Below, one piece after another: positions 4,310 to 45,057 of a DNA stretch of 64,000 bases. The notes under the pieces were generated by a model. It was not told where the DNA came from, made no database searches, and worked only from the letters and a program-made list of their open reading frames with translations. The DNA lies in the NCBI GenBank assembly GCA_021791545.1, contig JAJYWL010000007.1, forward strand, positions 3,972 through 67,971, in the 5' to 3' direction. The position numbers and the translations under genes are program-made. The first letter of the stretch is position 1; each line of letters begins with the position of its first letter. Source of the DNA: a bacterium (GTDB lineage Bacteria > Patescibacteriota > Microgenomatia > Levybacterales > UBA12049).

Positions 4310-4312
4310 TAG

Positions 4313-4383
4313 TGGACTTACCGAGAATCGAACTCGGAACTGTACAATGCGAATGTACCGGTATACCATTTACCTATAAGCCC
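4313..4383 (-). tRNA. tRNA-Ala (anticodon CGC).
   Basis: Hand-folded reverse complement: acceptor GGGCUUA/UAAGUCC with G3:U70. D-arm GGUA-AAUGGUA-UACC. Anticodon stem GUACA/UGUAC with loop UUCGCAU. T-arm CCGAG-UUCGAUU-CUCGG. Discriminator A. CCA is not encoded. Confidence 0.8.
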
Positions 4384-4456: not shown

Positions 4457-5161
4457 ATGTTTTATGAGAAGAATTTAAAAGAGGAGGCGATAAAACTTAG
4501 ATTAAAAGGATTTACTTATACTGAAATTAATAAAGAGTTGGGAATTATTATACCTAAGGGAACATTAAATGCTTGGTTAAAGAAGGTTTCTCTCCCGGAT
4601 AACTATAAAGAAAGAATAAAAAAGATTAATAATTTAAATTTAGATAAGGCAAGGACAAAAGCTTTAAAAGTGAATAAATTAAAAAGGGAAGAGTATTTAA
4701 GGTCTTTAGATAAGCTGAATATTGAAATAAGTGAAAGGATTAAAAATCCAGCTATTGGAAAAATAGCTTTAGCAATGCTGTGTTTGGGAGAAGCAAGTAA
4801 ATACAAAAGCGGGAGATCATTTAACCTTGGTAGCTCAGACCCTAAAATAATCAAAATATTTTTGGAGTTGTTAAGGACATGTTTTAGCTTTAAAACTTCA
4901 AAAATAAGGTGTACCGTCCAATGTAGAGCTGATCAAGATCTAAATCAATTGGAAAAGTTCTGGATGGAGATTACAGATATCCCTAGGGAACAGTTCTATA
5001 AACCTCAAATAGACAAAAGAACCATAGGAAAGCCAACACTAAAGGAGGATTATAAAGGAGTATTAAGAGTTGATTATTTAGACAGAAATGTTCAATTAGA
5101 GCTAGAATCGTTGGCAAATTTGATATATAATCAATTGAATTCCAAAGGGCCCGAAGTTTAA
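4457..5161 (+). CDS. HTH-containing LAGLIDADG-like homing-endonuclease family protein. Paralog of 44312..44932.
   Basis: N-terminal HTH (TYTEINKELGIIIPKGTLNAWLKK). The core LAMLCLGEASKYKSGRSFNLGSSDPKIIKIFLELLRTCF aligns with YWAEGNKKDFMLSNTDPKLIKVFVEGLRNIF of the paralog. This is a degenerate LAGLIDADG-type motif (L..GE.S / WAEG). Promoter TTGCAC-N17-TACAAT lies at 4422-4450 and ends 6 nt before the ATG, so the start is leaderless. The 3' end overlaps tRNA-Ala(GGC) by 15 nt. Confidence 0.45.
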   Translation: MFYEKNLKEEAIKLRLKGFTYTEINKELGIIIPKGTLNAWLKKVSLPDNYKERIKKINNLNLDKARTKALKVNKLKREEYLRSLDKLNIEISERIKNPAIGKIALAMLCLGEASKYKSGRSFNLGSSDPKIIKIFLELLRTCFSFKTSKIRCTVQCRADQDLNQLEKFWMEITDIPREQFYKPQIDKRTIGKPTLKEDYKGVLRVDYLDRNVQLELESLANLIYNQLNSKGPEV

Positions 5162-5219
5162 ATGGTTGAACATTTGGCTGGCAGCCAGAGGGTAGCGGGT
5201 TCGATCCCCGTCGGGTCCA
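5147..5219 (+). tRNA. tRNA-Ala (anticodon GGC).
   Basis: Acceptor GGGCCCG/CGGGUCC with G3:U70. D-arm GUUU-AAAUGGUU-GAAC. Anticodon stem UUUGG/CCAGA with loop CUGGCAG. T-arm GCGGG-UUCGAUC-CCCGU. Discriminator A. No encoded CCA. Confidence 0.8.
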
Positions 5220-5396
5220 CAATTTCCACCAAACTTGCTATTTATCCTCAAAACCTATATACTCCAAATAGATGAACAGGGAACCAATCACTTCTCTCTG
5301 AATGAGCGAGGAAAGTTGACCCCAAGAATATGATCAGAGAGGAGGTGACATTTAAGATAGTTAAATAGCAGCTAAAACTGCTTAACTAACCTCAAT

Positions 5397-8029: not shown

Positions 8030-11000
8030 TTAATTGACAATAATCCAGTTAAATGGAATATTTGACGTTGCAAAATCGGGAAGTCCGACGGTAAATGACT
8101 GTCCCGCAACTTGTCTGATAAGGTAGATTACCTGGTTTTTTGTATCTGCTGTCGGCGTTATATAAATGAGTGATTTATCTGTTACAAGTGAATTATCTAT
8201 TGTTACTTCTTTTTGATGTGCTGCTATCCAGGCAGTTCCTGCTGAACCGGTTGCCGTAATTTCTGTTTCCGATAATGCTTGAGCAGGTTGTATTAGGCTT
8301 AAGTTAAGCTTTGCAAATGTTCCGGCACCGGAAGCTGTAAGATCTCCAGATTTTCCGTTAAGGCTAAGAATAGATGATCCTGTCGCATTTGTGACGTTAA
8401 GATTTGCCACTTTTCCGGATGGGGAGGCAAGGTTAATTGCCAAGTCATTTCCCGGAATTGGTGCAATAGCGTTGGCATATAGAGTTCCTTTAACTTGGAC
8501 ATCCGATCCGAAGGTTACGTTTCCGTTTGTATCTATATATACAAGACCTGCCATTATTGAGACTCCACCTTGTTTAAGAGGTTGAATGTTAAAGTCAGAA
8601 CCTAATACATTAATAGAGTTATTTGCAAGTATTAAGCTTCCGTTTATTGCTACCTGTCCTGTTATAGATACATCGGATAGGGAAGAAGGTCCAAATACTG
8701 TAAGTCCTTCGGAGAAGGCAGCAGTCTGGGAAGAAAGCGTGGGAACGTATGAAAGTTGTCCTGACATTGAAGATATATCCATATAACCCGTTCCTGTCTG
8801 TGTTTGGTTTGTTGTTCCTGAGGAAGTACTCGTTGAAGAGCCGTTTACAAGACCAAAGTTTGTGTTAGATGAAGGAGTACTATTATATACATTAGTAATA
8901 TTGGTTACATAAGTTGCAGAAGAGCTTCCTGAAACTATCTGATCAGCAATGATTTTCCCTACATGTAAAGTTCCAGAAATACTTGCATCATTTGTATCTA
9001 ACTGATTAGAGGTTAGCTTTCCACTGAAGCTGGCGTTGCCTTGATTATCTATTGTTGCAACGGCAGAACCGGAAGAATTATTTGTGTTCAAAACAGATAA
9101 TTTATCATTTTCAAACCTTAAAGCTACTGCTGAGCTTGTTGCAGTAGGGGCTATTAGATTTGTTTTAATAGAATCCGATGCAATAGGTGAGACAACTTGT
9201 CCATTTGCATTCTGACCAACTATGTTATTAACAATAGTAGCTATATAGTCTCCAAGGTTTTGTCCGTTTACAATTATTTGCTGTGCATTTACAACTCCTG
9301 CTCTTAGATTTGCGACTGCAAGTTGCGCAAATGCTCCAACTCTATCAATAGGATTTCCTAAAGCATCAGATATTGAATAGTAGTGGGGAACAGTAAAATC
9401 AGCGCTTGTTGTTGCTTGGTCAACAATGCTCATATCTCCTGTAGATGTAAGATAGACCTGGGGATCAGAAAATCCAGGTTTAATAAATACCAAAATTTTT
9501 CCGTATGCATAGCAGTCGGGCTCATTTTGAGTACAGGTAGAATCCAAAATTTGCCACTGTCCGTTTATTAGTCTTGCCGATTGGGTTGCACTTGAAGGAT
9601 CAAAATCTGTTAAAGCTGTTCCTACAACCATTCCTGCTTTGGTTGCTTTCATTCCAACTCCGGGAATTTCGCTTGATGTTACTAGGTCACCGACTTTAAT
9701 AGGGCCATTTTTAGAAGTGACTTTTACCGGAATACGTCCTGCAACTGTCAAGGGTCTTTCATTAGATTCCCAGAGATTGTCTGAATTAAAATTGTTATTA
9801 ATTAACATTCCCGGGTTTTCGCTTATTGCTCCTATTAAATCAGGTGAATATGGAGTACTTGTTTTCGAAGCTAAAGCTTTTTGGTAAATGTCTTTTACGC
9901 TGTTGTCATAATCTTTTGCAGCAACTATATCACCAGAATCAATCGATTGATCTTTTATTCTTATAGTTTCAGCGTAGTCAGGTGTGGTGCTTCCTGTAAT
10001 CGTACCTGCTGCTCTTATGATACCGGTTAAGCTGATTGATACAAGGCTTGTCCCACCGTTTCTTTCAAACATTAATTTTCCGGTTGTAGCAGAGCTTGCC
10101 GTCAGATAAGTGTCCATCCAATATGTTGAGTTTTGTGTCCATTTTAATCCTCCTTGTCCAGCTACGCTACCGCTACTTACAACAGTTACCCATTGTCCAG
10201 CCGATCCTGATGGATCCATGTATACGTTCCCATAGAAACCTGAGTTATCTATATTCAAAGCTGAAGATGATCCGTTTCCTCCGAGGTGAAGAGCACCAGC
10301 TGTATCCGCAACCAAGTACATGTCGGAATTACTGGTAGATCCGTCACCAACATACCCAATTCTTGTTCCACCGCTGTCATAAAAACCTAAATAGGCATTG
10401 CTTGTGGCTCCTGTAGCTTGACCATACAATCCTACATAATGGGTCTCGTTTATTCTCATGGCTAATGTCGGGTTTGTGTTTACTGCATTTATAGTGTTGA
10501 AATCAAAGTAACCTCCGGAGGTATCAGAAACAAATCCTATGCTTGCTGCTCCATACGTGCTTCTTGCGAATGCTCCGTCGCTTGATCTTCTGTTAATTGC
10601 AAGATAAGCAGCATCAATATATGTATCCATATACATTCTATTTCCGCTTGACGAGCCTATACTCCAGTTGGAATTAGCCGTCCCGTTGCCAATTGATAGA
10701 TTTTCGGCTGGGGATGTGTTTCCAATTCCGATGTTTCCACTTGATCCGGTAATTGTGCCTCCTCCGCTTCCAAGTTTAAGACTCGCTATAGCACTATTAC
10801 TATTTCCATAAAGACCAAGAGTATTTGCAACATCAATATCTGTAAAGAATGAATCGTCACCTACTTGAAGTAATTTTGCCCCAGGATTACTTCCGCTGTC
10901 TTCAATAAGTATGCCTCCATTAGTTCCTCCTCCGCCAAATACGTCCATTTTGTATCCTGAGGTAGGGCTGGTTACGTTGACTCCAATATTTCCGAGATGA

Positions 11001-14000
11001 TCTATCATCATCCTTGTCTGTGCTCCGGTAGCAAAAGAATTTGTGGTTGCAAAATACATCTTAGTTCCGTAGGCTCCGCTAGATTGTACATAAATACCAG
11101 CTTGAGCAGTATTGCCGGATGAAGATTGTCCTGCACCAAAGGTAATTCCATTAGCATAGTCAGCAACGTTTGTAGGTGCTGTTAAATGTATGCCATAAGT
11201 GGTAGCGAGTCCGGGAGTTGTTACATTTATGGTACTACTTTCGGATACATCTAATAAATCATTTGGAGCAGTTATTCCAATTCCAACGTCTCCTGTGCCC
11301 GTTATTACCATTCTTTGATTAGTACCGCCTGTTAAAAATGAAATTGGAGCATTGTTTCCTTGGAATATGTTTAGAGAGTTAGCTCCTCCATAACTTGCTA
11401 ATGCTGTTCCTCCTGCAAAAACACCCATGTTTTGAGCAGCATCGCTTTTAAGTAATAAATATGCATATCCTGCAGAATTGGTATTTTGTATCTCTCCAGT
11501 GATGCCGGATGAAGAATTTCCATAAATATGTAAAGGACTTGCAGGGCTATCTGTTCCTATTCCCATATTTCCACCATAGCTGTAAAAGGCGTAGGTAGGG
11601 TTAGTTTGTGTTCCAGCAGGAAGAGACGCAACTGAAGCAGAATTTGTTGGTGAAATTGTAATATTATTACTTGCGCTTAAAGCTGTGTATGTATATTCCT
11701 CATAGCTTGTTGGATTTTTAACATATAAAGTACCAGTAGTTGGTCCCGCATAGCTCGTTAGAACAAAGACTATGTTTGCTGCCTTAATTCCATAAAGATA
11801 AGAAGCCTGTAAAGAAACAATTGGGGGACTTCCAAATGCCGCCTGTTGTTTTACTTGCAAATGTACAAGGGCATTATCGTCAGATTGAGATCCTGCAGCG
11901 CCTTGTTTCGAGATTAAAATATCTGCTGTCCCATATCCATATTGGGCAGGAATACTTACAGATGCAATAGGGAAGTATTGATTTGTATAGGTACCTCCTC
12001 CTGTAGTTGTTGTCCACCCAGACATTATTCCTTGTTCGAATAATCCTATTCCTCCGGCAACATCAAGTTTCGTAGTCGTACCAGTAATAGAATATGTTCC
12101 TATTCCGGCAGCTCCTGCTGTCGTAAGAGAAGTTCCCGAAGCTGCTGGGTCAAGGAAGTATGAGTTGTTGTCCAAGTCAGTAAAGGATCTACCATATATA
12201 GAACCAAGATTTGTAACTTTAAATTGTAGTCTTCCAAGAGCAGGGGATAGACCTGATGAAGCATTTATTAAATCTCCTGCCCCGGTATTGCTGTCTATTC
12301 CTAAAGCAGGTCCACTTGTTGTTCCCGAGAAAGAAGCGATAGGAGTAGTTGCTGAACTTCCTCTTACATCTAAAGTCGCAAGGGGAGCTGATATGCCAAG
12401 GCCAAGATTTCCTAAATGGTCTAATCTCATTTTTTCTGTGTAGGTTGCTCCATTTCCTACCATAAACCCTATATAACCGCTTTGATCTGTGGCTGAGAAG
12501 GCAGCATCTGTTCCGAAATTTATTCTTCCGACATCTTTGAAACTCGTTCCGTTATATGCTCTACCTACAAGAGTAGTTACGTCGGAATTTGCTGTTGCTA
12601 TTGTAGGAGCTGCTTTTGTTCCTTTTGCAACCTGAAGAATTAAAGCAGATTGTCCTGTTGTGCTTCCCGTGTAATTATCTACTTCTACACTTGGATACCT
12701 TGGTGCAGTGCTTGAATCATTTTCTACTACTATTATAGAATTCATATCATTTCCTACCACATTTATTCCCCCTCCATAGCCTTTATTTGGAGTAACAATT
12801 AATTGTCCGCTAAATGAAGCTTGAGTTTGGTTTCCCATTAAACCTGTGAATGCAAAATCTGCAGATGCTGTCGAAGATCCCCCTATAAGAAGATCATCTC
12901 CAGATTGAACAGGGGATAGAGCACCCGAAAGTTCTTGCCAAAAGTTATATGTAGTCGGACATGTTCCCCAGGCAGGTATACTTGATCCGGAAAGAAGACA
13001 TTGTCCGGAAGTTGTTGTTGATGAGACTGAAGTAACAAGACCTGTTGAATTTGCAGAATAGAGTACTGCATTGTTTCCATTGTTATTAACAAGAGTAAGA
13101 GTTTTCCCTGTTGGTATTGTAGTATTTCCATTTAGAGAAACTGTTCCTGTTCCTGTTGCAAAATTACCAGTTCCTGACATTGTTATATTTCCTGAACCAT
13201 CAATGGTTAATCTTGTTGAAAGGGTTTCTGGGTTTACTCCTGATACTCCTGCGGTTGATGTCATAAAATATATGTTTCCTCCAGCAGCGTTTCCTGTAGA
13301 TATTCCGCTTGCTAGGGTAAGATTGGCTCCTGTAACGTTTGTACCTGATCCTCCGCTGGCGTGTAGTATAACTTGTCTGGGAGAAGCCGTAGTAACTCCG
13401 TTTCCAAGATAAAAATCTTGTATGTAGCTTGTGCCCGTATTTCCTCCTATAACTGCTTGATTCGACCCTGTCGCAATTGCGTTATACCCTAAAGCAAGAG
13501 AATAATTAAGGTTATTCGAAGACATATCTGCATATGCTCCGATTATGGTGTTATTGTTTCCAACAGTAGGAACTGTGCCTGCATATGCTCCTAGTAATAC
13601 ATTATCTGTTCCTCCTCCTAAATTAACTCCAGCTTGATATCCGAGTAAGGCATTTTCAGTACCTGTGCTCAAGTTTGTACCTGCGCTTGTTCCAACAGCT
13701 GTGTTGTATCCTGAAGCAGTAGGGTTGCCAGCAAATCCTCCTACAAATATATTTGAAGTGCCATAGGCAGAAAGTATATTTGTTCCTCTAAATGCATAGC
13801 CTGTATAGCTATTAACTCCTCCTCCGTATCCCTTGTTTGGCATTATGTTAAGTTGTCCGCTAAATGATGCTTGTGTCTGGTTTCCCATCAGACCTGTAAA
13901 TGCAAAATCTGCAGATGCTGTTGAAGAACCTCCTATAAGAAGATCATCACCTGGTTGAACGGGGGAGAGAGCACCTGCTAGTTCTTGCCAGAAGCCTGCC

Positions 14001-17000
14001 CCTCCATTTGTAAGAAGTACACCATTGGAATAGATATTTTGACCATATATGTTTCTCCACTGGTGTGTGGCATCTCCTAAATCTATCTGCTGATTGGTTG
14101 TAGGGGCAACATTTGATCCTGTTCCTCCGGAGGGAGCTATGGCTAGATTTCCTGAGGTAGCTAAAAGTTGGACATTGTTTGTAGTTGCTCCATCATAAAT
14201 TTGGATTCCTCCTGTTCCTCCTCCATAATCGTAGTTAAATCTAACAGCAGAAGTACCTCCGTTTGAAGATATATCCAAGATTCCGGATGCTCCTGTTTTT
14301 TTAATAACCGTATCTCCACTTGAAGCTGTAAAACTTAATCCATTTCCTGTTGTAGTTATAGCTCCGGTTGCATCAACTTGAAAATTGGAAGAAGATCCAA
14401 CGGAAAATAACGCAGCTGAATTGGAATTTCCTATTCCAACATATCCGGAGCTATTAATAGTAAGTCTATCTGTATACGTTTCTGCGCCATAGGCTGTTCC
14501 ATTGGTTCCTTGCTGAATCCTAAAATCAAAATTGCTGCTTGCCAAGTAAAGTCTTGCACCTGTTCCTATTCTATTTCCTGATGTAGTTCTGTAAAGAGTG
14601 ATTGCTGGATTAGCATTGCCCTGAACAGATTCTCCGATTGTTACCAATGAATTAGCTGAAAGAAGAAATTCTGCTGAACTCGATGCAAATGGAGTTACAG
14701 GAGTACTGGCTGAGACAGAATTTTTAAATACAGCTCCGTTTCTTACATCAAGCTGAGCAACTGGATTATTTGTTCCGATACCAACATTGCCAGCAAAATA
14801 GCCTTGTCCGTCTGCTCTCACGCTAAAATTGGTGGTTGAACCAGTTACTCCTTGAAAATAGGTGTTATTAGCACCCGTTAAATTGTCTGTTATTGCCTGG
14901 AATATTCCAGGCGCACCGTAAGAATATCCTGATCCTACTTGGTGTCCTGTAAAAAATACTTGCCCAGTTGTGCCCACTGATGCAACAGCACCGGTTGTAT
15001 TTACGGTAAATTGTCCATTGGAACTGTTGGGACCTACAGTTAAAAGTTGTCCTGGATTTGTTGTTCCTATTCCAACATTTCCTGAACTGGCTTGTATCGT
15101 CATCCAAGTAGACGTGGCATTCATGTTGGTAAATCTTAGATCAGCTCCCGTTCCGGCTCCCATTGCTGCACCTGCGCTTTCGATATAATTTATTCCACCG
15201 CTGGGAACGAATTTAAGTCCACTTAAGACGCTTGCTAGTGTTCCATTATCTCGGATATATTGAGTACCAAAAACATCTAGGTTAACTTGTGGAGCTGCTG
15301 TGCCTATACCAACATTGCCTTCTACAATAAGACCGTTTGAGGGAGGGGTAGTGGTGACATATGTTGATCCAATAGCCTGACTCCCGCTTACTTCCAATAC
15401 AGCTCCAGTATTACTATATGTTGCTCCTGTATTCGATAAAACAAAGCCACGACTAGTTGCTGCATTTAAAGAGACACCTCCCTGATAATTTGCTAGTATA
15501 TATGCATTATTGGCTGTTCCACTATTACGTCCAGTTAGGTTTAATTGAGCGTTTGCGCTTCCTGCTCCTGCGTCAATAGTAAAGGCTCCGGTAGTATGGC
15601 CGGTACCTGTTACGTCAAGAGTATATGCGGGAGTGTTTGTTCCAATTCCAACATTTCCTCCGTATCCATTATTTGGCATTACGATAAGTTGTCCGCTGAA
15701 GCTGGCTTGTGTCTGATGGTTTGCAAGTCCAAGTCCTGTGAATGCAAATTCGGCGGATGCTGTCGAAGATCCTCCTAGTAATAGATCATCTCCTGACTGA
15801 ATAGGGGACAGAGCTCCCGAAAGTTCTTGCCAGTAGTTATAGTTTCCTGTAGAACAGCTTCCCCATGAGGCATTTGCTCCTCCGATAAGACATTGTCCTG
15901 CTCCTGTTGAGGCTCCCAGTGTAATTGCTCCGGAAGTTAAGGTTAATCCGGTAGAGGCTGCTATTGCGCCTGATGAATTAACTTGGAATTGAGCCGAAGA
16001 TCCTACATTAAATAAGGATGTGGCTGTTGTTCCGCCTATTGTAAAGTTACCGTTGGTGGCAACCATATATCGTGGAGGATAGCTGGCTGAGGATGAATCA
16101 AAAACCAACGTTCCCGTGGGGATAGATGTAGAACCAGTTGGATTAGGGTAAACAGTAGCTTGAATAGATTCTGTAATATTATAGGAGATAGACGTATAGC
16201 TGGTTGCTTTGTGGTAAGTATAGACTGAAATTGATCCGTCTGTTTCCTGATAGGCCAGAATCTTAGCTTTACTTCTTACATCTCCAAATAGATCATATTC
16301 ATATTTAAAGCCATTTCTATTACCCATTAAGATATTGAATTGGGATTTTTGATTGCTGCCCCAGCCATCGTCAAGAATTCCGTTAATAACTATATGATCG
16401 TATGTCGCGCTTGTGGAAATTGGTAAAGTTGCTATTTTATAATAAGTGTCGGAAGCAGGATTAACTCCTGTTTGGCTCCAACCCCAAACGGTATTGTTTA
16501 TTTGTGCGCTATTTCCTACTACTTGAAGAGCAGTTTGTGGATTATTGGTTCCTATTCCTAAATTTCCACCAGTTAAATAAGAATTTCCACTGGAGCTAAG
16601 TTGGACAGTAGCGCTTGCTCCTGAATAATCGTTTATGCCCGGGCTTATTAGAAATGCTGAAGCATTAGCAGCGGAGTTGTTAAACTGAACAATTTTACCT
16701 GTTTGATCTAATCTAAAAGATTGATGACTAGTTGTATTGACAACATTGGTAAGATTTATAGTGGTAGCTTGAACCGTACCACTTGTGTTACCGGGTGTGC
16801 CATTCCCGATATTTATATATCCATCTCCTCCCCTTGAGATTCCCGTAGTGACTGATCCTGATCCGTTATCCCAACCAAGTGATCCTCCCGAACTTAAGGT
16901 TAAAAGTTGTCCTGGGTTTGTTGTTCCAATTCCAACATTTCCACTACTATTTATTACCATTGCCGTTCCTGTTCCAAAGGAATTATTATTAACATTAAAT

Positions 17001-19834
17001 TCAATTCCTTTGCCTGTAACCCCCTGAACTACAGTATTAAGGTTGGTTCCGTCGTATCCGAAGTAAGCTCTGGAATTTGCAGACAAATAAGATATATTAG
17101 ATGCACTGTCTACACCTGACGGAGTTAATTTAATAAAAGCATTTCCTGATGTATCTGAGATATCCAATTTTGCACCTGGGCTTGTTGTTCCAATCCCAAC
17201 ATTCCCTCCGTATCCGTTGTTTGGCATTACGATAAGTTGTCCGCTAAAGGAGGCTTGTGTTTGATGGTTAGCAAGTCCAAGTCCTGTAAAAGCAAATTCG
17301 GCAGATGAAGTTGAAGAACCTCCAATTAGCAGATCATCGCTTGAATTGATAGGGGAAAGAGCACCGGTTAATTCTTGCCAGAAATTATAGTTTCCCGTAG
17401 AGCAACTTCCCCAAGAAGGTGCGTAACCTGCTCCTGCTCCTGAAACCAAGCATTGTCCTGAAGTTGAGGTTGTAGCGGATGTCACTACTCCAGTTCCCGT
17501 AGTTGCATAGAGTACTGCGTTATTTCCGGTTATTCCTCCAAGAGTTAATGTTTTTCCGGAGGTAACTGTTGTATTACTATTTAACGTAATTGTTCCTGTT
17601 GAATTTCCGACTGAAACATTTCCCGTATTGGTAGTAGCAAGGTTTAAAGCACCAGTGCCATTAGGGATTATCGATAAATCATCGTTTGAAACAGTACCCA
17701 AAGTTGCTGCAGAGCCATTTCCTAAGTAAAGAGTAGTATTGGTGATGTTATTTCCGCTTATTGTAAGATTTTGCGCCAAGGTTAGACCAGAGCTCATGGA
17801 AAAGTAGCTCCCAGTTGTTTTGGTTATGGTTCCATCGCCAATTTTTATTCCTCCCGTTGTCCCATCGCCAAAAACCGAATTAGATGTTGAGTTTGCGGAT
17901 AAAATTCCTCCTGCAGTCACGTTTCCCGAAGCATCTACTGTAAATTTAGCTACTCCGCTTGCAGATGCACTTATTATCGGTCCTGTTGACCCTTGATTTA
18001 TTGTCACTGCGGATTGTCCGCTTGAAGTAGCAAGGACGGCAAACATGTCATCTACTTCAACTGCTCCCTGAGCGGTAGATATATTGTTATTGTATGAGCT
18101 ATTTTGTAATGGTTTTTGAAGATCAATCTTTCCTAAACCGTCCGGAGAAATAGTAACATTAGCATTTGAACCGACATTAGTGCCAAGCACAAGCGGTTGT
18201 CCTAATAGCTTGAATTGGCCGCCTGTTGCTTGAAATGTGGGAGTGGCGGTGCCTCCAATAGAAAGATTTCCTGAAGAATCCAAGGCCAGGATTACGTTTG
18301 TTGCCGAAGTAGTAGCCGTAGTCGGATACATTCCTTGGAGCGTTTCGGCGTTTGTTGCATACGCAACTGTAGCTAAAGGTTGTCTGGGAGTAAGTTCTGC
18401 AGTTTGTCCTACTGTTACTCCTAGCCACAAAGCGTTATTTTGCGTAAATACTTCCGGTGGAATAACAGAGTTTTGTCCTAAGAGGACATTGAATATTCCG
18501 TCGGTGTCGGGAGATACATAATCCGTCTCCTGCCATTTGAAAATTGTGGTTCCAGAATCCGATGCTGTAGCACTGGTATAAATACCAAAACGCAGCCACG
18601 TGGGGCTGGTGATTGGGTTATCGTTGCTGTCGGTCAGCCTACCCTGAAACGACAGTATTCTCGGTGGAGCCACGGGAGCGGCAGCAAGGATTGGACTTTG
18701 ATTTTTGGGATTATCAAAAAAGCTTGTATAGAATCCAAATCCTATTGCAGCCATTATTATTATCAAAACCGCAAAGTTAAGATAGTGGGCAAGTGGATAG
18801 GAGTGATATGTTTTATACCAGTTTGGTCTTTTATATCTCAGTGCAATCCAATACTTTTTGTAGGAAGGAAGGTTAGCTGTAGATATGGTTAAAGGAGCAT
18901 AGAATTCTTTCTTTATATTTGAGACTTTAAGAAAGTTATGATCCGGGATTTTAGCTTTGATTTCGCTAGATTTCTCCGTGAAAACATGTTTTCCTTTAAC
19001 TTTCCATGCTATATATTCGGCATTCCTTACGCCCTTAGCGAGAGTTTCGGTTATCGCTTTATCGAATATAGCTTGGAAACCTAATCCCATTTTTTGGGCT
19101 ACTCTAAGAGGAGGGAACCAAGAGTAGTTTTTAATTCTAGGTTCCTCAGTTTTTGAAAGTTCTTGTGAAATAGCTTCAGGTTGTGTTGTGAAAAAGGGAG
19201 TTTGATAATTTGTAATTTCAGGCTGTGCTTTTATGAAGCCTTCTTCTTGAGCCCAGGAAAGATATTTCCTTAGAGAAGATAGCTTCCTATTGACCGTGGT
19301 AGCAGAAAAATTATTGTGGGTGATTAACCTCTGTTTGTATTCCTCGATGAGTTCTTTGTTTATTTTCCCTACGGTTGGAAGGTCTGAGTTAGGAGTGACC
19401 GTCTCAGCCCAGGTAAGGAATTGTCGAATATCAATGATATAGTTCTTTATAGTAAGATTCGATGCGTTGAATACATAGAGGTAGTTTTTAAATTCCTTTA
19501 TGTGCCATGGATCTTTAACCTCGACGGGTTGAGGAAGGACAGCTTTGAATGGATCACTAGAGATATATCCTTCAAGCTTAAGAAAGTAGAAGAACTTTCT
19601 AAGTGATGACATGTGCCTATCAAGTGAGCTTTCGGAAAGAACGGAGGCTGATTGTGTTTTATAATTTCGTATTGTTTCAAAGCTTATCTCGGAGGGGGAG
19701 AAAGCTTTCTTGTATTGGTCTTCAAAGAATTTAATGAAATGATTTATGTCCGATAGATAATTTTTTACCGTAACCTTTGAAGGCTGGTTCTTTTGTGATA
19801 ATAAATAATTTTTAAACTGGGCAAGTATATCCAT
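8030..19834 (-). CDS. Giant (3,934 aa) membrane-anchored surface protein. It has an N-terminal cytoplasmic region with two tandem phage-integrase SAM-like (core-binding) domains, a single TM helix, and a ~3,500-aa beta-rich repeat ectodomain.
   Basis: First SAM-like copy: ILAQFKNYLLSQKNQPSKVTVKNYLSDINHFIKFFE...SLDRHMSSLRKFFYFLKLEGYISSDP. Second copy: IKEFKNYLYVFNASNLTIKNYIIDIRQFLTWAE...TVNRKLSSLRKYLSWAQEEGFI. Both match the integrase N-terminal consensus (aflehL...lsenTlraYrrdlrrF..fl...s.rsiarrlsalrsfyryl). TM helix YLNFAVLIIIMAAIGFGFYTSFF. Many fibre-like repeats (GNVGIGTT(N/S)P..(L/V)). Four long internal repeats (CSTGNYN(F/Y)WQEL.GALSP..SGDDLLIGGSSTASAEFAFTGL...SFSGQLIVMPN.GYGG). S/T/N/G-rich. 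Confidence 0.85.
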   Translation of the reverse strand: MDILAQFKNYLLSQKNQPSKVTVKNYLSDINHFIKFFEDQYKKAFSPSEISFETIRNYKTQSASVLSESSLDRHMSSLRKFFYFLKLEGYISSDPFKAVLPQPVEVKDPWHIKEFKNYLYVFNASNLTIKNYIIDIRQFLTWAETVTPNSDLPTVGKINKELIEEYKQRLITHNNFSATTVNRKLSSLRKYLSWAQEEGFIKAQPEITNYQTPFFTTQPEAISQELSKTEEPRIKNYSWFPPLRVAQKMGLGFQAIFDKAITETLAKGVRNAEYIAWKVKGKHVFTEKSSEIKAKIPDHNFLKVSNIKKEFYAPLTISTANLPSYKKYWIALRYKRPNWYKTYHSYPLAHYLNFAVLIIIMAAIGFGFYTSFFDNPKNQSPILAAAPVAPPRILSFQGRLTDSNDNPITSPTWLRFGIYTSATASDSGTTIFKWQETDYVSPDTDGIFNVLLGQNSVIPPEVFTQNNALWLGVTVGQTAELTPRQPLATVAYATNAETLQGMYPTTATTSATNVILALDSSGNLSIGGTATPTFQATGGQFKLLGQPLVLGTNVGSNANVTISPDGLGKIDLQKPLQNSSYNNNISTAQGAVEVDDMFAVLATSSGQSAVTINQGSTGPIISASASGVAKFTVDASGNVTAGGILSANSTSNSVFGDGTTGGIKIGDGTITKTTGSYFSMSSGLTLAQNLTISGNNITNTTLYLGNGSAATLGTVSNDDLSIIPNGTGALNLATTNTGNVSVGNSTGTITLNSNTTVTSGKTLTLGGITGNNAVLYATTGTGVVTSATTSTSGQCLVSGAGAGYAPSWGSCSTGNYNFWQELTGALSPINSSDDLLIGGSSTSSAEFAFTGLGLANHQTQASFSGQLIVMPNNGYGGNVGIGTTSPGAKLDISDTSGNAFIKLTPSGVDSASNISYLSANSRAYFGYDGTNLNTVVQGVTGKGIEFNVNNNSFGTGTAMVINSSGNVGIGTTNPGQLLTLSSGGSLGWDNGSGSVTTGISRGGDGYINIGNGTPGNTSGTVQATTINLTNVVNTTSHQSFRLDQTGKIVQFNNSAANASAFLISPGINDYSGASATVQLSSSGNSYLTGGNLGIGTNNPQTALQVVGNSAQINNTVWGWSQTGVNPASDTYYKIATLPISTSATYDHIVINGILDDGWGSNQKSQFNILMGNRNGFKYEYDLFGDVRSKAKILAYQETDGSISVYTYHKATSYTSISYNITESIQATVYPNPTGSTSIPTGTLVFDSSSASYPPRYMVATNGNFTIGGTTATSLFNVGSSAQFQVNSSGAIAASTGLTLTSGAITLGASTGAGQCLIGGANASWGSCSTGNYNYWQELSGALSPIQSGDDLLLGGSSTASAEFAFTGLGLANHQTQASFSGQLIVMPNNGYGGNVGIGTNTPAYTLDVTGTGHTTGAFTIDAGAGSANAQLNLTGRNSGTANNAYILANYQGGVSLNAATSRGFVLSNTGATYSNTGAVLEVSGSQAIGSTYVTTTPPSNGLIVEGNVGIGTAAPQVNLDVFGTQYIRDNGTLASVLSGLKFVPSGGINYIESAGAAMGAGTGADLRFTNMNATSTWMTIQASSGNVGIGTTNPGQLLTVGPNSSNGQFTVNTTGAVASVGTTGQVFFTGHQVGSGYSYGAPGIFQAITDNLTGANNTYFQGVTGSTTNFSVRADGQGYFAGNVGIGTNNPVAQLDVRNGAVFKNSVSASTPVTPFASSSAEFLLSANSLVTIGESVQGNANPAITLYRTTSGNRIGTGARLYLASSNFDFRIQQGTNGTAYGAETYTDRLTINSSGYVGIGNSNSAALFSVGSSSNFQVDATGAITTTGNGLSFTASSGDTVIKKTGASGILDISSNGGTSAVRFNYDYGGGTGGIQIYDGATTNNVQLLATSGNLAIAPSGGTGSNVAPTTNQQIDLGDATHQWRNIYGQNIYSNGVLLTNGGAGFWQELAGALSPVQPGDDLLIGGSSTASADFAFTGLMGNQTQASFSGQLNIMPNKGYGGGVNSYTGYAFRGTNILSAYGTSNIFVGGFAGNPTASGYNTAVGTSAGTNLSTGTENALLGYQAGVNLGGGTDNVLLGAYAGTVPTVGNNNTIIGAYADMSSNNLNYSLALGYNAIATGSNQAVIGGNTGTSYIQDFYLGNGVTTASPRQVILHASGGSGTNVTGANLTLASGISTGNAAGGNIYFMTSTAGVSGVNPETLSTRLTIDGSGNITMSGTGNFATGTGTVSLNGNTTIPTGKTLTLVNNNGNNAVLYSANSTGLVTSVSSTTTSGQCLLSGSSIPAWGTCPTTYNFWQELSGALSPVQSGDDLLIGGSSTASADFAFTGLMGNQTQASFSGQLIVTPNKGYGGGINVVGNDMNSIIVVENDSSTAPRYPSVEVDNYTGSTTGQSALILQVAKGTKAAPTIATANSDVTTLVGRAYNGTSFKDVGRINFGTDAAFSATDQSGYIGFMVGNGATYTEKMRLDHLGNLGLGISAPLATLDVRGSSATTPIASFSGTTSGPALGIDSNTGAGDLINASSGLSPALGRLQFKVTNLGSIYGRSFTDLDNNSYFLDPAASGTSLTTAGAAGIGTYSITGTTTKLDVAGGIGLFEQGIMSGWTTTTGGGTYTNQYFPIASVSIPAQYGYGTADILISKQGAAGSQSDDNALVHLQVKQQAAFGSPPIVSLQASYLYGIKAANIVFVLTSYAGPTTGTLYVKNPTSYEEYTYTALSASNNITISPTNSASVASLPAGTQTNPTYAFYSYGGNMGIGTDSPASPLHIYGNSSSGITGEIQNTNSAGYAYLLLKSDAAQNMGVFAGGTALASYGGANSLNIFQGNNAPISFLTGGTNQRMVITGTGDVGIGITAPNDLLDVSESSTINVTTPGLATTYGIHLTAPTNVADYANGITFGAGQSSSGNTAQAGIYVQSSGAYGTKMYFATTNSFATGAQTRMMIDHLGNIGVNVTSPTSGYKMDVFGGGGTNGGILIEDSGSNPGAKLLQVGDDSFFTDIDVANTLGLYGNSNSAIASLKLGSGGGTITGSSGNIGIGNTSPAENLSIGNGTANSNWSIGSSSGNRMYMDTYIDAAYLAINRRSSDGAFARSTYGAASIGFVSDTSGGYFDFNTINAVNTNPTLAMRINETHYVGLYGQATGATSNAYLGFYDSGGTRIGYVGDGSTSNSDMYLVADTAGALHLGGNGSSSALNIDNSGFYGNVYMDPSGSAGQWVTVVSSGSVAGQGGLKWTQNSTYWMDTYLTASSATTGKLMFERNGGTSLVSISLTGIIRAAGTITGSTTPDYAETIRIKDQSIDSGDIVAAKDYDNSVKDIYQKALASKTSTPYSPDLIGAISENPGMLINNNFNSDNLWESNERPLTVAGRIPVKVTSKNGPIKVGDLVTSSEIPGVGMKATKAGMVVGTALTDFDPSSATQSARLINGQWQILDSTCTQNEPDCYAYGKILVFIKPGFSDPQVYLTSTGDMSIVDQATTSADFTVPHYYSISDALGNPIDRVGAFAQLAVANLRAGVVNAQQIIVNGQNLGDYIATIVNNIVGQNANGQVVSPIASDSIKTNLIAPTATSSAVALRFENDKLSVLNTNNSSGSAVATIDNQGNASFSGKLTSNQLDTNDASISGTLHVGKIIADQIVSGSSSATYVTNITNVYNSTPSSNTNFGLVNGSSTSTSSGTTNQTQTGTGYMDISSMSGQLSYVPTLSSQTAAFSEGLTVFGPSSLSDVSITGQVAINGSLILANNSINVLGSDFNIQPLKQGGVSIMAGLVYIDTNGNVTFGSDVQVKGTLYANAIAPIPGNDLAINLASPSGKVANLNVTNATGSSILSLNGKSGDLTASGAGTFAKLNLSLIQPAQALSETEITATGSAGTAWIAAHQKEVTIDNSLVTDKSLIYITPTADTKNQVIYLIRQVAGQSFTVGLPDFATSNIPFNWIIVN
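12765..17430 (-). repeat. Four dispersed in-frame direct repeats (~180-230 bp each, ~80-85% nt identity) inside the giant gene.
   Basis: Near-identical DNA blocks at about 12765-12945, 13815-13995, 15650-15900 and 17200-17430. An example shared string is gtccgctaaatga.gcttg.g...tgcaaa.tc.gcagatg...gttcttgcca. Confidence 0.7.
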
Positions 19835-20404
19835 TGATTTAAATAATAAATTCTTGTGAAAATTCCTCTATAGCCTCGAGATTATACAGATTATACGGTT
19901 TATATCCGTGAAAAAAAGATTTATTACTCATACTATTAGAATAAAGAAAATTTTTCACCACTGTCAAGGACCTAGAGTATTATTAGATGAGATAGATTGT
20001 TAAGGATTGATATACTTGTTGTTGAAGGTGGTATTGGTGAAATAGGGTAGTGAAAAGGCTGTTTATGCCCCTGAGGCTAGTAAATTAGATAAAATAGCTA
20101 TATCTTAATGTATCAAACTAGACTTTCATCTAATTTTGGGGTAGTTGTTGATTTTGATATATTTGCCTAGAAAATGGCCGAGTTGTGTAAAATTAATCTA
20201 AGATCAGGAGGGTAGTTTAGCCTCACTCTTAGCAGATATATGGTGTGAGTGATAGGTATTTTCACATAGGGGTTTGGATTGATCTGGCGGGCTGTTTTAA
20301 ATCTATTCTAGTTTTATTCGTATGTCTCTAGCTTCGTCTATGATTTATAAAGATTTTAGTACCTTAACTGTTGTATTCCCTGAGTTTATTATACAATATA
20401 ACTA

Positions 20405-43041: not shown

Positions 43042-44112
43042 TTAATCTTTTCTTCTAAGATTTTGGGGGTAGCTTATTGAGGAGATAACTTTTTCTATGT
43101 CGCTTCTGTCTAATTGAACCAATTGATTTGGGGTATGAAAATCTTCTGTTTCTTTATGTTCTATTACTTCTCTGGGGGAGAGAAAATAAAGACTGGTGGT
43201 TTCCGGTCCGTTTTTGTCATTGATGTTTGTCAGAATAAGATCTGTATCTAGCCTTAACTGCTCAAGTCCCGGTATTTCGTCATTAACTCCCATTTGTTCT
43301 ATAGTTTTAGGAGTGGTTATTGTCCATTCCTGACCGTCTTCCGTATTAAATGATGCTACTCTTGCTTTCCCAAGCATTTCACGAAGCTTAATCCAGAGCC
43401 TTCTTCCCGGCTCTTTTGCTTCTTCTTGCGCTTCCTTACTTAGCGTAAGTCTTTCAAGTGCCTTTTCCTCAGGTTCTTCGGGTGGAATAGATCGAAATTT
43501 AGTATCTAAAGCCTGATTATTTGAAAGATCTTCAGAAATAGCTTTTATTCCAGTCTTTCCTAGCTCGACTTTTCTAAATGAAAGTTCGCTTTCTCTGATC
43601 GGTACGGTATGTATTCCTTTATCTGTCTGTATGAATGTAGGCCATTCAAGGTCGATAAGAAGAACACCCATCTTAGTTAAGAAGTAGTATTGTCTTATTT
43701 CGTATTCCGTAATTTTGCCGTATGGATTTATCTCTTCACCCTTACTTATTCTGACTAAAGCAGCTTCCGCATTTACAGGAGAAAGTCCAAGTTCTTGTGT
43801 TTCTTCTTTTCCGTATATTCTTATGACATCTCCGCGTTTATCGATTGCTTCCATGTGGGTTGAGTTTCCCAAAAGTCCTTCAACTTGGGTTTTGAGGCCT
43901 GATGCTGCCTCTACGGCTTCATTTCTGGCGTCTTTTTGTAAGAGAGTTATATCTGCCAGATCATTTGAGATATTTCTTCTCATTGCAAAAATGAGATATG
44001 TGTCGTTTATCATTCCAAGAGACTCTTGTGTTTCTTGATTTGTGTTTTTAGAGACGATTTTTTGTGCTTCAAGTACCGTAGGGGACTGATTTGCATCTAC
44101 AAACTCGGGCAT
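43042..44112 (-). CDS. Hypothetical protein (356 aa).
   Basis: ORF only. Confidence 0.4.
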   Translation of the reverse strand: MPEFVDANQSPTVLEAQKIVSKNTNQETQESLGMINDTYLIFAMRRNISNDLADITLLQKDARNEAVEAASGLKTQVEGLLGNSTHMEAIDKRGDVIRIYGKEETQELGLSPVNAEAALVRISKGEEINPYGKITEYEIRQYYFLTKMGVLLIDLEWPTFIQTDKGIHTVPIRESELSFRKVELGKTGIKAISEDLSNNQALDTKFRSIPPEEPEEKALERLTLSKEAQEEAKEPGRRLWIKLREMLGKARVASFNTEDGQEWTITTPKTIEQMGVNDEIPGLEQLRLDTDLILTNINDKNGPETTSLYFLSPREVIEHKETEDFHTPNQLVQLDRSDIEKVISSISYPQNLRRKD

Positions 44113-44156
44113 AAAAATATTTTAAATGGTTGAGTAAACGGATGCAAGAAGAAAAG

Positions 44157-44228
44157 TCGGGGTGCCGGGAATTGGACCCGGTACCTCTCGGTCCCGAACC
44201 GAGCGTTCTACCGATGAACTACACCCCG
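44157..44228 (-). tRNA. tRNA-Pro (anticodon CGG).
   Basis: Reverse complement folds as acceptor CGGGGUG/CACCCCG, D-arm GUUC-AUCGGUA-GAAC, anticodon stem CUCGG/CCGAG with loop UUCGGGA, T-arm CCGGG-UCCAAUU-CCCGG, discriminator A. The T-loop has C55, which is unusual. Confidence 0.7.
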
Positions 44229-44276
44229 TGGGATAATTTTATTGATTTTGATTTGAATATACAAACTTGTTCTTGA

Positions 44277-44305
44277 TTGACAAGAAGGTCTCATTTGGTC
44301 ATAAT
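44277..44305 (+). promoter_or_regulatory. Near-consensus sigma-70 promoter TTGACA-N17-CATAAT, leaderless to the ATG at 44312.
   Basis: Read from the sequence. Same arrangement as the promoter of the paralog at 4457. Confidence 0.5.
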
Positions 44306-44311
44306 TAAATT

Positions 44312-44932
44312 ATGGCTAGACGCTTGAGTGAAAAAGAACTTAATAAATTGAAATTTATGAGAAAGAAAGGGAAAAGTATACTAGAAATTTCTAAAATTTT
44401 GAATATTCCTAAAACTACAGTTTTTTATCATGCAAAACAAGTGAAAATGTCTTCAGAAGTTTTGAAAGCATGGAGAACTAAGAGGGGAGGGAGTAAGAAT
44501 TTAAAATTTGAAAAAGAGAAAAAAGCTTTTGTTGAGGCTAAAAAAGAAATCGGAAAGTTATCTAAAAAGGAAAAGTTGCTATTTCTTTCAGCACTTTATT
44601 GGGCAGAGGGTAATAAGAAGGATTTCATGCTTTCCAATACAGACCCTAAACTAATAAAAGTGTTTGTTGAGGGTTTAAGAAACATTTTTGAAATAGACGA
44701 TGAAAGGTTAAAAATAAGCATAAGAATATATGAAGACATGGATAAAGAAAAGTGCCTTACTTTTTGGTCTAGTTTGATTGGTGTTCCAAAACAAAAATTT
44801 CAAAATGTTTATATTCTTAAAGGAAAGAAGCAGGGAAAACTGAAGTTTGGGATGTGTAGAGTAAGGGTAACTAAAGGCGGGGACCTGTTAAAGAAGGTAT
44901 TTGCAATAAATAATATTGTTGCTAATTTTTAA
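44312..44932 (+). CDS. HTH-containing LAGLIDADG-like homing-endonuclease family protein. Paralog of 4457..5161.
   Basis: N-terminal HTH ILEISKILNIPKTTVFYHAKQ. LLFLSALYWAEGNKKDFMLSNTDPKLIKVFVEGLRNIF aligns with the 4457 paralog. Lies between tRNA-Pro (-) and tRNA-Arg (+). Confidence 0.45.
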   Translation: MARRLSEKELNKLKFMRKKGKSILEISKILNIPKTTVFYHAKQVKMSSEVLKAWRTKRGGSKNLKFEKEKKAFVEAKKEIGKLSKKEKLLFLSALYWAEGNKKDFMLSNTDPKLIKVFVEGLRNIFEIDDERLKISIRIYEDMDKEKCLTFWSSLIGVPKQKFQNVYILKGKKQGKLKFGMCRVRVTKGGDLLKKVFAINNIVANF

Positions 44933-44956
44933 GTATTTCTATAGAATTTAGCAGAA

Positions 44957-45028
44957 GCCTCCGTAGCTCAATGGATAGAGTAGTCGCGTCCTAAGCGATC
45001 GATGCAGGTTCGATTCCCGCCGGGGGTA
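44957..45028 (+). tRNA. tRNA-Arg (anticodon CCU).
   Basis: Acceptor GCCUCCG/CGGGGGU (with G-U pairs). D-arm GCUC-AAUGGAUA-GAGU. Anticodon stem GUCGC/GCGAU with loop GUCCUAA. T-arm GCAGG-UUCGAUU-CCCGC (one A-C mismatch). Discriminator A. Confidence 0.65.
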
Positions 45029-45057
45029 CTAGATAAAGATTCTTTTACATAATTATT

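What the first reader, a model, noticed from the sequence alone, without database searches (positions are those of the whole stretch)
44157..45028. Paralogous HTH-LAGLIDADG-like gene in an identical tRNA-sandwich (tRNA-Pro / tRNA-Arg)
Second copy of the family (aligned core ...SNTDPKLIKVFVEGLRNIF versus ...GSSDPKIIKIFLELLRTCF). It sits between tRNA-Pro(CGG, minus) and tRNA-Arg(CCU, plus). It again has a consensus promoter (TTGACA-N17-CATAAT) ending 6 nt before the ATG. Two independent insertions into convergent/divergent tRNA pairs 40 kb apart argue for targeted mobility rather than chance.
Basis: partly seen in the sequence, partly recalled or inferred. Interest (0 to 1): 0.55.

Follow-up and report, generated by a model that had tools for sequence, protein, structure and literature searches.

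The report
tRNA-linked HTH–LAGLIDADG-like gene family
This gene belongs to a large, undescribed family of endonuclease-like DNA-binding proteins in ultra-small (CPR) bacteria and some giant-phage-like contigs; every copy examined in CPR genomes sits directly in front of one particular tRNA gene, which is how a selfish "homing" gene that targets tRNA genes would look.

Summary
The tRNA-Pro(CGG, -), the 206-aa ORF (44312-44932), tRNA-Arg(CCU, +) and the TTGACA-N17-CATAAT promoter ending 6 nt before the ATG are all there. The ORF is a real paralogue of ORF 4457-5161 (27% identity, E 1e-12).

The "sandwich" is not the conserved feature. In 88 of 88 non-redundant family genes, a tRNA gene on the same strand starts right after the stop codon or overlaps it. 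Each protein clade has its own tRNA: Arg-CCU, Lys-CUU or Ala-GGC. The upstream tRNA is only a variable neighbour.

Related genomes with near-identical tRNA-Arg show empty sites, or a different small gene in the same slot. Relatives also lie inside tRNA arrays of viral contigs. However, the gene is under strong purifying selection (dN/dS about 0.1) and mostly co-diverges with its neighbour.

Best reading (about 0.55): an old lineage of free-standing homing-endonuclease-type genes specific for tRNA genes. A domesticated regulator is the main rival.

The parts
44156..44228 (-). tRNA-Pro(CGG). A frequent but variable upstream neighbour, not the conserved partner.
   Evidence: ARAGORN and Rfam at 62.5 bits. 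In relatives it is on either strand, at 86-674 nt, downstream of tRNA-Arg, or absent.
44256..44283 (-). Promoter-like site for tRNA-Pro (TTGTCA-N16-TATATT). Its -35 overlaps the -35 of the ORF promoter on the other strand (TTGACAA / TTGTCAA).
   Evidence: Consensus scan, 10 of 12 matches. Function is inferred.
44277..44305 (+). Sigma-70-type promoter TTGACA-N17-CATAAT of the ORF. The -10 ends 6 nt before the ATG, so the mRNA is predicted to be leaderless; there is no Shine-Dalgarno sequence.
   Evidence: 11 of 12 matches. A promoter-like match whose -10 ends 6-7 nt before the start codon recurs in most of the family loci listed.
44312..44932 (+). ORF-B, 206 aa: a family member of the tRNA-Arg(CCU) clade.
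   Evidence: 427 homologues, 52-67% identity among the best 120; dN/dS 0.06-0.17.
44324..44446 (+). N-terminal helix-turn-helix domain (residues about 5-45), Tc3/Hin/resolvase type. R17 and G20 are invariant.
44564..44929 (+). C-terminal single LAGLIDADG-like domain (residues 85-206).
44585..44611 (+). LAGLIDADG-like motif L92-S-A-L-Y-W-A-E99-G100 at the end of helix 85-99. E99 (44606-44608) is the putative metal-binding catalytic residue.
   Evidence: Read from the sequence. E99, L95 and K102 are invariant in 88 of 88 sequences. hhalign places E99 on I-CreI D20 and D111 on Q47, but the score is not significant (E 0.3).
44919..44947 (+). Promoter-like site for tRNA-Arg itself (TTGCTA-N17-TAGAAT). 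The -35 lies inside the end of the ORF and the -10 ends 9 nt before the tRNA.
   Evidence: 9 of 12 matches. Comparable -10 elements lie 8-15 nt before tRNA-Arg in both occupied and empty loci.
44957..45029 (+). tRNA-Arg(CCU). The conserved partner of this clade, starting 24 nt after the ORF stop, with no terminator between them.
   Evidence: All 58 non-redundant ORF-B-clade genes are followed by tRNA-Arg(CCU).
4457..5161 (+). Paralogue ORF-A, 234 aa, of the tRNA-Ala(GGC) clade. Its last 15 nt overlap the tRNA. Its promoter TTGCAC(4422-4427)-N17-TACAAT(4445-4450) ends 6 nt before the ATG.
   Evidence: Orthologues L010-L012 are each followed by tRNA-Ala(GGC) at gaps of -15, +4 and -10.
5147..5220 (+). 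tRNA-Ala(GGC), the conserved partner of ORF-A.
4312..4383 (-). tRNA-Ala(CGC), a variable upstream neighbour of ORF-A.
   Evidence: In relatives it is on the + strand at 41 nt (L010) or 916 nt (L012) upstream, or absent (L011).

Best explanation
ORF 44312-44932 is one member of a very large family that has not been described, found mainly in CPR/Patescibacteria.

Shown: The protein has an N-terminal Tc3/Hin-type HTH, a helical linker, and a single divergent LAGLIDADG-like domain that keeps the motif's acidic residue (LSALYWAEG, E99). Every family lineage is encoded immediately 5' of one specific tRNA gene on the same strand. This one precedes tRNA-Arg(CCU), and its paralogue at 4457-5161 precedes tRNA-Ala(GGC).

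Inferred mechanism: The protein is a free-standing homing-endonuclease-type gene. It probably acts as a homodimer, with the HTH adding DNA contacts. It would recognise the conserved tRNA gene and its 5' flank in alleles that lack the gene and cut there. Repair from an occupied allele would then copy the gene next to the tRNA. That would explain why each lineage stays attached to its own tRNA and why occupied and empty sites coexist.

Inferred expression: The gene is transcribed from its own strong promoter as a leaderless mRNA. With no terminator, transcription reads into the tRNA, so RNase P cleavage of the tRNA 5' end would define the mRNA 3' end. The tRNA also keeps a promoter of its own.

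The insertions are ancient and mostly vertically inherited, not recent.

For: 2. Target linkage. All 88 family ORFs have a same-strand tRNA within -60..+120 nt of the stop; the listed cellular gaps run from -45 to +51 nt. The stop codon often lies inside the tRNA, at U8A9G10 or U36A37A38.

3. Clade-to-tRNA specificity. The nearest protein relative has the same tRNA in 85 of 88 cases: Arg-CCU 58, Lys-CUU 23, Ala-GGC 4. This is the pattern expected of site-specific endonuclease lineages.

4. Presence/absence. A scan with a tRNA-Arg(CCU) 25-mer gave 53 metagenome loci. Among those with at least 700 nt upstream, 8 carry the ORF (one of them frameshifted) and 25 do not. In many of the latter, the 5' ends of tRNA-Pro and tRNA-Arg are only about 45-170 nt apart. 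Five of them (six loci in all) hold a 23S_rRNA_IVP-like ORF in the same slot.

5. Other LAGLIDADG genes in the same position. Canonical LAGLIDADG_3/_1 ORFs occupy the equivalent place 5' of tRNA-Leu(UAG) and tRNA-Cys(GCA) in L068 and L088.

6. Viral contigs. Ten relatives lie in or beside tRNA arrays in IMG/VR contigs. In three of them the stop is 1, -10 or 4 nt from a tRNA.

7. Occasional decay and rearrangement. L034, L057 and L129 are frameshifted. Rearrangement breakpoints fall at the tRNA.

8. No intron. There is no intron ribozyme and the tRNA is uninterrupted, so the gene is free-standing.
Against: No cleavage activity has been shown.

No Pfam LAGLIDADG model matches any of the 70 members tested. 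The hhalign comparison with I-CreI is not significant (E 0.3). Foldseek against the PDB gave no LAGLIDADG hit. The strand order in the model (alpha-beta-alpha-beta-alpha-beta-beta-alpha) differs from the canonical alpha-beta-beta-alpha-beta-beta-alpha.

dN/dS is 0.06-0.17, as low as for a housekeeping gene. ORF identity follows the identity of the neighbouring sortase gene (r 0.61, no strong transfer outliers). The locus is syntenic across Microgenomates. Only about 4% of copies are broken. All of this fits a host function equally well.

Occupied and empty loci are all at least about 19% diverged in their flanks, so no recent gain or loss was caught. The tRNA sequence can be identical in occupied and empty loci, so how an occupied allele would escape cutting is unexplained.
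Confidence: 0.55

Rival explanations
1. It is a domesticated LAGLIDADG/HTH protein that works like WhiA. It would be a sequence-specific DNA-binding factor without nuclease function, acting in cis on the promoter region it shares with the adjacent tRNA genes. It might autoregulate, or tune expression of a non-essential isoacceptor tRNA such as Arg-CCU, Lys-CUU or Ala-GGC. Its absence in some genomes would then be simple loss.
Against: The motif's acidic residue, which WhiA has lost (from my own knowledge of WhiA; not checked here), is invariant here. A trans-acting regulator would not need to stay within 0-50 nt of one tRNA through every rearrangement. Related genomes with near-identical tRNA and promoter manage without the gene, or carry an unrelated gene in the slot. 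Relatives occur in tRNA arrays of viral contigs.
Confidence: 0.25
2. It acts on RNA. It could be a maturase-like protein, or a processing factor that binds the precursor of the tRNA it is co-transcribed with and helps folding, 5' maturation or stability.
For: The ORF and tRNA are contiguous with no terminator, and in about 40% of loci the stop codon lies inside the tRNA, so the two share a transcript. Some LAGLIDADG proteins are RNA maturases (established knowledge). The family also accompanies tRNAs in viral contigs.
Against: The tRNAs look ordinary and score well with the general tRNA model. The same tRNA exists without the gene in relatives. The HTH and the conserved acidic motif point to DNA. 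There is no enrichment of the cognate codon in the ORFs. No structured RNA other than the tRNAs was detected.
Confidence: 0.08
3. One reading: two recent, independent insertions of a mobile gene into divergent tRNA pairs of this genome, with the tRNA 'sandwich' as the target.
For: Both copies in the window lie between a minus-strand and a plus-strand tRNA.
Against: The upstream tRNA varies in strand and distance or is missing, whereas the downstream tRNA is constant. The two copies are only 27% identical and belong to old clades with different partner tRNAs. The ORF-B locus is syntenic across candidate phyla.
Confidence: 0.03

Closest known systems
Single-motif (homodimeric) LAGLIDADG homing endonucleases such as I-CreI, I-MsoI and I-CeuI
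   Different: No Pfam LAGLIDADG model detects it. It has an extra N-terminal HTH and linker. The first beta-hairpin is shortened and the strand order is altered. It is free-standing rather than encoded in an intron or intein. It lies at the 5' edge of tRNA genes. It is under strong purifying selection and mostly vertically inherited. Activity has not been tested.
WhiA (DUF199), a domesticated LAGLIDADG + HTH transcription factor of Gram-positive bacteria
   Different: WhiA has two LAGLIDADG domains and a C-terminal HTH; this protein has one domain and an N-terminal HTH. WhiA lacks the catalytic acidic residues (my own knowledge, not checked here), whereas E99 is invariant here. No Pfam WhiA model matches. 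WhiA is not tied to tRNA genes.
Free-standing homing endonucleases in phage tRNA gene clusters, such as T4 SegB (PMC2330249)
   Same: A free-standing endonuclease-type gene embedded among tRNA genes on the same strand. SegB drives preferential inheritance of the tRNA region. Relatives of the present family lie in tRNA arrays of viral contigs.
   Different: SegB is a GIY-YIG enzyme (PMC2330249), not LAGLIDADG-like. The present family is chiefly chromosomal in CPR bacteria, with one lineage per tRNA species conserved across classes.
Homing endonuclease genes inside group I introns of tRNA genes, including LAGLIDADG genes in cyanobacterial tRNA-Arg(CCU) introns and HNH genes in Patescibacteria tRNA-Asn introns (PMC13011429)
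   Same: They use tRNA genes, including tRNA-Arg(CCU), as a niche for endonuclease genes. They occur in the same phylum.
   Different: Here there is no intron. The tRNA is uninterrupted and no ribozyme is detected. The gene lies in front of the tRNA, not inside it.

Membership tests
LAGLIDADG homing endonucleases | LAGLIDADG core fold (alpha-beta-beta-alpha-beta-beta-alpha) | tested here: met
LAGLIDADG homing endonucleases | Motif helix ending in a conserved acidic residue that binds the catalytic metal | tested here: met
   L92-S-A-L-Y-W-A-E99-G100 lies at the C-terminal end of helix 85-99. E99 is invariant in 88 of 88 sequences. Its catalytic role is inferred.
LAGLIDADG homing endonucleases | Significant match to a curated sequence model (Pfam LAGLIDADG_1/2/3) | tested here: not met
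   None of the 70 members matches, even at E up to 1. hhalign against I-CreI gives E 0.3.
LAGLIDADG homing endonucleases | Site-specific double-strand DNA cleavage | not testable with these tools
   Needs purified protein and empty-site DNA.
Homing (selfish) genetic elements | Occupied and empty alleles of the same conserved target site among related genomes | tested here: met
   With at least 700 nt upstream of a near-identical tRNA-Arg(CCU), 8 loci are occupied and 25 are not. A different gene sits in the slot in 6 loci. However, all compared flanks are at least about 19% diverged.
Homing (selfish) genetic elements | Horizontal spread: gene tree conflicts with host or flank tree | tested here: inconclusive
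   ORF identity correlates with sortase identity (r 0.61) and there are no gross outliers. Two ORF-B subtypes are mildly incongruent with the sortase. Distant relatives occur in viral contigs.
WhiA / DUF199 | Two tandem degenerate LAGLIDADG domains followed by a C-terminal HTH, matching the Pfam WhiA models | tested here: not met
   One domain, N-terminal HTH. No WhiA model appears among the Pfam matches listed.
Intron-encoded endonuclease of a tRNA group I intron | ORF lies inside a group I intron that interrupts the tRNA | tested here: not met
   Rfam finds only intact tRNAs, at both gathering and E-value thresholds. ARAGORN calls uninterrupted tRNAs.
SegB-type free-standing endonucleases of tRNA clusters | GIY-YIG catalytic domain | tested here: not met
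   No GIY-YIG match in Pfam or PHROGs. The position next to tRNA genes is shared.

The most novel reading that the evidence does not exclude
The family is not selfish. Each paralogue would be a dedicated factor for the tRNA gene it precedes, acting in cis on the tDNA or on the shared transcript to control expression or maturation of particular isoacceptors (Arg-CCU, Lys-CUU, Ala-GGC and others). That would be a protein-per-tRNA control layer in CPR bacteria, also carried by large phage-like contigs alongside their tRNA arrays.
Probability: 0.2. Interest if true: 0.85.

Novelty: new variant of a known kind. Interest (0 to 1): 0.62.

Why it matters
If the best reading is right, CPR bacteria carry a large, previously unrecognised branch of the LAGLIDADG superfamily: 3375 clusters at E <= 1e-10 in a library clustered at 50% identity. 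It would use tRNA genes, rather than introns or inteins, as long-term homing sites, with one lineage per tRNA.

That would add a new niche for homing endonucleases in cellular genomes. It would also offer a set of natural, compact, tRNA-gene-specific DNA-recognition scaffolds. It could help explain why tRNA neighbourhoods in these reduced genomes are rearrangement hot spots.

It also gives annotators a simple rule: a roughly 200-250 aa 'hypothetical' or 'HTH' protein that abuts a tRNA gene.

If the rival is right instead, this is a second, independent domestication of a LAGLIDADG + HTH protein, tied to individual tRNAs. That would be more surprising still.

Tried and rejected
- Pfam, NCBIfam and PHROGs gave only weak HTH hits and nothing for the C-terminal domain.
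- PDB sequence searches gave HTH-only hits.
- tblastn of a viral-contig relative against GenBank phages found no match.
- A group I intron or other structured RNA around the ORF is rejected: Rfam finds only the tRNAs.
- The idea that the ORF lies in the tRNA's 5' leader and depends entirely on one shared promoter is weakened. The tRNA keeps a promoter-like -10 of its own in both occupied and empty loci.
- Translational coupling through the cognate codon (AGG, AAG, GCC/GCU enrichment) is rejected: there is no enrichment relative to flanking genes.
- A third paralogue in the window is rejected: the profile finds only the two.
- The search for a recently diverged occupied/empty pair to map insertion boundaries failed. 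The closest such pair (L127 and L103) is 81-82% identical in the flank.
- Five literature searches found no description of this family.

Full report
**1.

ARAGORN and Rfam both find exactly four tRNA genes in the 64 kb window:
- tRNA-Ala(CGC), 4312-4383, minus strand
- tRNA-Ala(GGC), 5147-5220, plus strand
- tRNA-Pro(CGG), 44156-44228, minus strand
- tRNA-Arg(CCU), 44957-45029, plus strand

Between the second pair lies ORF-B (44312-44932, plus strand, 206 aa). Between the first pair lies ORF-A (4457-5161, plus strand, 234 aa). The last 15 nt of ORF-A overlap tRNA-Ala(GGC).

The promoter TTGACA-N17-CATAAT lies at 44277-44305 and ends 6 nt before the ATG. ORF-A has TTGCAC-N17-TACAAT with the same 6-nt spacing. 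There is no Shine-Dalgarno sequence, so both mRNAs are predicted to be leaderless (inference).

**2. What the protein is.**

Sequence libraries see only a weak N-terminal HTH and nothing else. An alignment of 70 homologues (A1) gave a confident AlphaFold model (pLDDT 91.9). The model has an HTH at residues about 5-45, long linker helices, and a compact alpha/beta domain at residues 85-206.

Helix 85-99 ends in L-S-A-L-Y-W-A-E-G, a good copy of the LAGLIDADG motif. E99, K102 and L95 are invariant in 88 of 88 family sequences, and N109 and D111 nearly so. A profile comparison with I-CreI is not significant (E 0.3). Even so, it puts E99 on the catalytic D20 and D111 on Q47.

No Pfam LAGLIDADG or WhiA model matches any of the 70 members. 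The predicted strand order also departs from the canonical one. 'HTH plus LAGLIDADG-like' is therefore supported at the fold and motif level, but not at the sequence-family level.

**3. The real regularity is one gene in front of one tRNA.**

ORF-B has 427 homologues, with 52-67% identity among the best 120, in Levy-, Davies- and Gottesmanbacteria. ORF-A has 614. A profile search of 1.84 billion representative proteins finds 3375 clusters at E <= 1e-10.

In nine ORF-B loci from long contigs, the order DsbA/VKOR - tRNA-Pro - ORF - tRNA-Arg - sortase - PEGA - MreB recurs. The insertion is therefore old and inherited, not recent.

In 80 loci from GTDB species genomes, ARAGORN finds a same-strand tRNA gene starting right at the end of nearly every ORF. 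The exceptions are two frameshifted copies, one truncated ORF and one locus cut at its end. After removing redundancy, all 88 full-length family ORFs have such a tRNA within -60..+120 nt.

Negative gaps recur at -10 and at -38/-39. In those cases the stop codon is U8-A9-G10 or U36-A37-A38 of the tRNA itself.

The partner tRNA is specific to the clade. ORF-B orthologues in both Microgenomates and Parcubacteria precede tRNA-Arg(CCU) (58 cases). A third clade precedes tRNA-Lys(CUU) (23 cases). ORF-A orthologues precede tRNA-Ala(GGC). Single genes precede Gln(UUG), Gly(GCC) and Met(CAU). The nearest protein relative has the same tRNA in 85 of 88 cases.

A promoter-like match with its -10 ending 6-7 nt before the start codon recurs in most family loci.

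**4. Evidence bearing on mobility.**

A metagenome scan with a 25-nt stretch of tRNA-Arg(CCU) returned 53 loci. Among those with at least 700 nt upstream, 8 carry the family ORF (one, L129, frameshifted) and 25 do not. Some of the 53 loci are copies of the same sequence, so the distinct counts are lower.

In many of the loci without the ORF, the 5' ends of tRNA-Pro(-) and tRNA-Arg(+) are only about 45-170 nt apart and the interval holds promoter-like elements, so there is no room for the gene. In six loci the slot holds an unrelated ORF of about 190 aa with a 23S_rRNA_IVP signature (E about 1e-7, below Pfam's cut-off).

L124 (family ORF) and L097 (IVP-like ORF) share a 98% identical segment from -17 to +78 around the tRNA, plus a gene 2.3 kb upstream, but nothing in between. 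Inversions have their breakpoints at the tRNA.

Canonical LAGLIDADG_3/_1 ORFs sit in the equivalent position in front of tRNA-Leu(UAG) and tRNA-Cys(GCA) in two Parcubacteria loci.

Ten distant relatives (22-27% identity, same motif) occur in IMG/VR viral contigs of up to 498 kb. All ten lie in or beside tRNA arrays, and three have the stop 1, -10 or 4 nt from a tRNA. Three cellular copies are frameshifted.

**5. Evidence pointing the other way.**

dN/dS is 0.06-0.17, and 0.09-0.12 for the unsaturated pairs. ORF identity tracks the identity of the downstream sortase (r 0.61, 204 pairs) with no strong transfer outliers; only a mild incongruence between two ORF-B subtypes appears.

No occupied/empty pair closer than 81-82% in the flank was found, so no recent event is documented. 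The tRNA can be identical in occupied and empty loci. If the protein cuts, what protects occupied alleles is unknown.

**6. Interpretation.**

The combination fits a long-lived lineage of free-standing homing-endonuclease-type genes that use tRNA genes as targets. The features that point this way are:
- a LAGLIDADG-like domain with its acidic residue retained, plus an extra HTH
- strict, lineage-specific attachment to the 5' edge of a highly conserved gene
- patchy occupancy of the site, with alternative occupants
- canonical LAGLIDADG genes in the same position at other tRNAs
- relatives in tRNA arrays of viral contigs

This is comparable in logic to SegB in the T4 tRNA cluster (PMC2330249), but with a different fold and a chromosomal, phylum-wide distribution. 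Cleavage, dimerisation, read-through into the tRNA and release by RNase P are all inferences.

The main rival is a WhiA-like domesticated DNA-binding factor acting in cis on the tRNA locus. Selection and vertical inheritance favour it. The conserved acidic residue, the strict adjacency, the empty sites and the viral-contig copies count against it. A role at the RNA level is less likely. There is no codon-level coupling between ORF and tRNA, and no structured RNA apart from the tRNAs.

**7. Novelty.**

Searches of the held literature found nothing on this family or on a systematic gene-before-tRNA arrangement in CPR bacteria. The closest paper treats group I introns inside Patescibacteria tRNA genes (PMC13011429).

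I rate it a new variant of a known kind: a divergent, HTH-fused, free-standing branch of the LAGLIDADG superfamily with tRNA genes as its niche. Record titles such as 'uncultured Gammaproteobacteria' for some loci are the depositors' labels. Gene order and tRNA context place those loci with the Microgenomates.

Noticed in passing
L097 2923-3501; L116 2245-2844; L114 87-650; L126 1575-2168; L134 147-707; L139 556-1116 (coordinates with tRNA-Arg oriented on the + strand): An unrelated ORF of about 190 aa with a 23S_rRNA_IVP / four-helix-bundle signature (..ARSGKQNIAEG..) occupies the same slot directly 5' of tRNA-Arg(CCU), at a gap of 5-45 nt, in genomes that lack the family gene.
   Followed up: partly
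L068 2507-3169 and L088 494-1234: Canonical two-motif LAGLIDADG genes (Pfam LAGLIDADG_3/_1, above the cut-off) end 22 and 18 nt inside tRNA-Leu(UAG) and tRNA-Cys(GCA). The position in front of a tRNA is therefore used by other LAGLIDADG families as well.
   Followed up: partly
L146-L155 (IMG/VR contigs of 21-498 kb): Distant family relatives (22-27% identity, MLYWAEGSK motif) lie in or beside dense tRNA arrays of up to 21 tRNAs in 4 kb in viral contigs. I did not verify that these contigs are really phages. There is no match in GenBank phages.
   Followed up: partly
L101, L128, L136, L110, L104, L141 and others: the 8-25 nt before tRNA-Arg(CCU): Empty sites share a highly conserved extended -10-like element, TGNTAAAATACAA, just upstream of the tRNA. 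In the divergent arrangement it overlaps the tRNA-Pro promoter on the other strand. Occupied loci lack the ATACAA part.
   Followed up: no
window 44277-44283: The -35 boxes of the ORF promoter and of the divergent tRNA-Pro promoter overlap as a near-palindrome (TTGACAA / TTGTCAA). A CTAGATTGACAA-like element is conserved at this place in Microgenomates loci and could be an operator.
   Followed up: no
L003, L008, L007, L019, L022 and others; window 5147-5161: In about 40% of loci the ORF's stop codon lies inside the tRNA (U8A9G10, or U36A37A38 of the anticodon loop). RNase P cleavage of a shared transcript would then leave an mRNA without a stop codon.
   Followed up: partly
L127 vs L141; L124 vs L110 and L128: Inversions and translocations have breakpoints right at the tRNA-Arg/tRNA-Pro pair. 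In L141, tRNA-Arg is inverted relative to both tRNA-Pro and the sortase gene.
   Followed up: partly
L066 3085-3582: A second family member, of the ORF-A-like type, starts just after tRNA-Glu(UUC), 970 nt downstream of the Arg-clade gene. It runs off the end of the locus, so its partner tRNA was not seen.
   Followed up: no
window 8030-19867 (-): A single open reading frame of about 11.8 kb (about 3,940 aa).
   Followed up: no
window 43042-44112 (-): A 356-aa ORF next to tRNA-Pro with no Pfam match. Relatives have different or shorter ORFs at this position (L009: 170 aa; L001: 102 aa).
   Followed up: no
window 44957-45029: By my own reading of the sequence, tRNA-Arg(CCU) has G1-U72 and U4-G69 wobble pairs and an A51-C63 mismatch in the T stem. 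tRNA-Ala(GGC) has A rather than U at position 8. Both still score well above the Rfam threshold.
   Followed up: no
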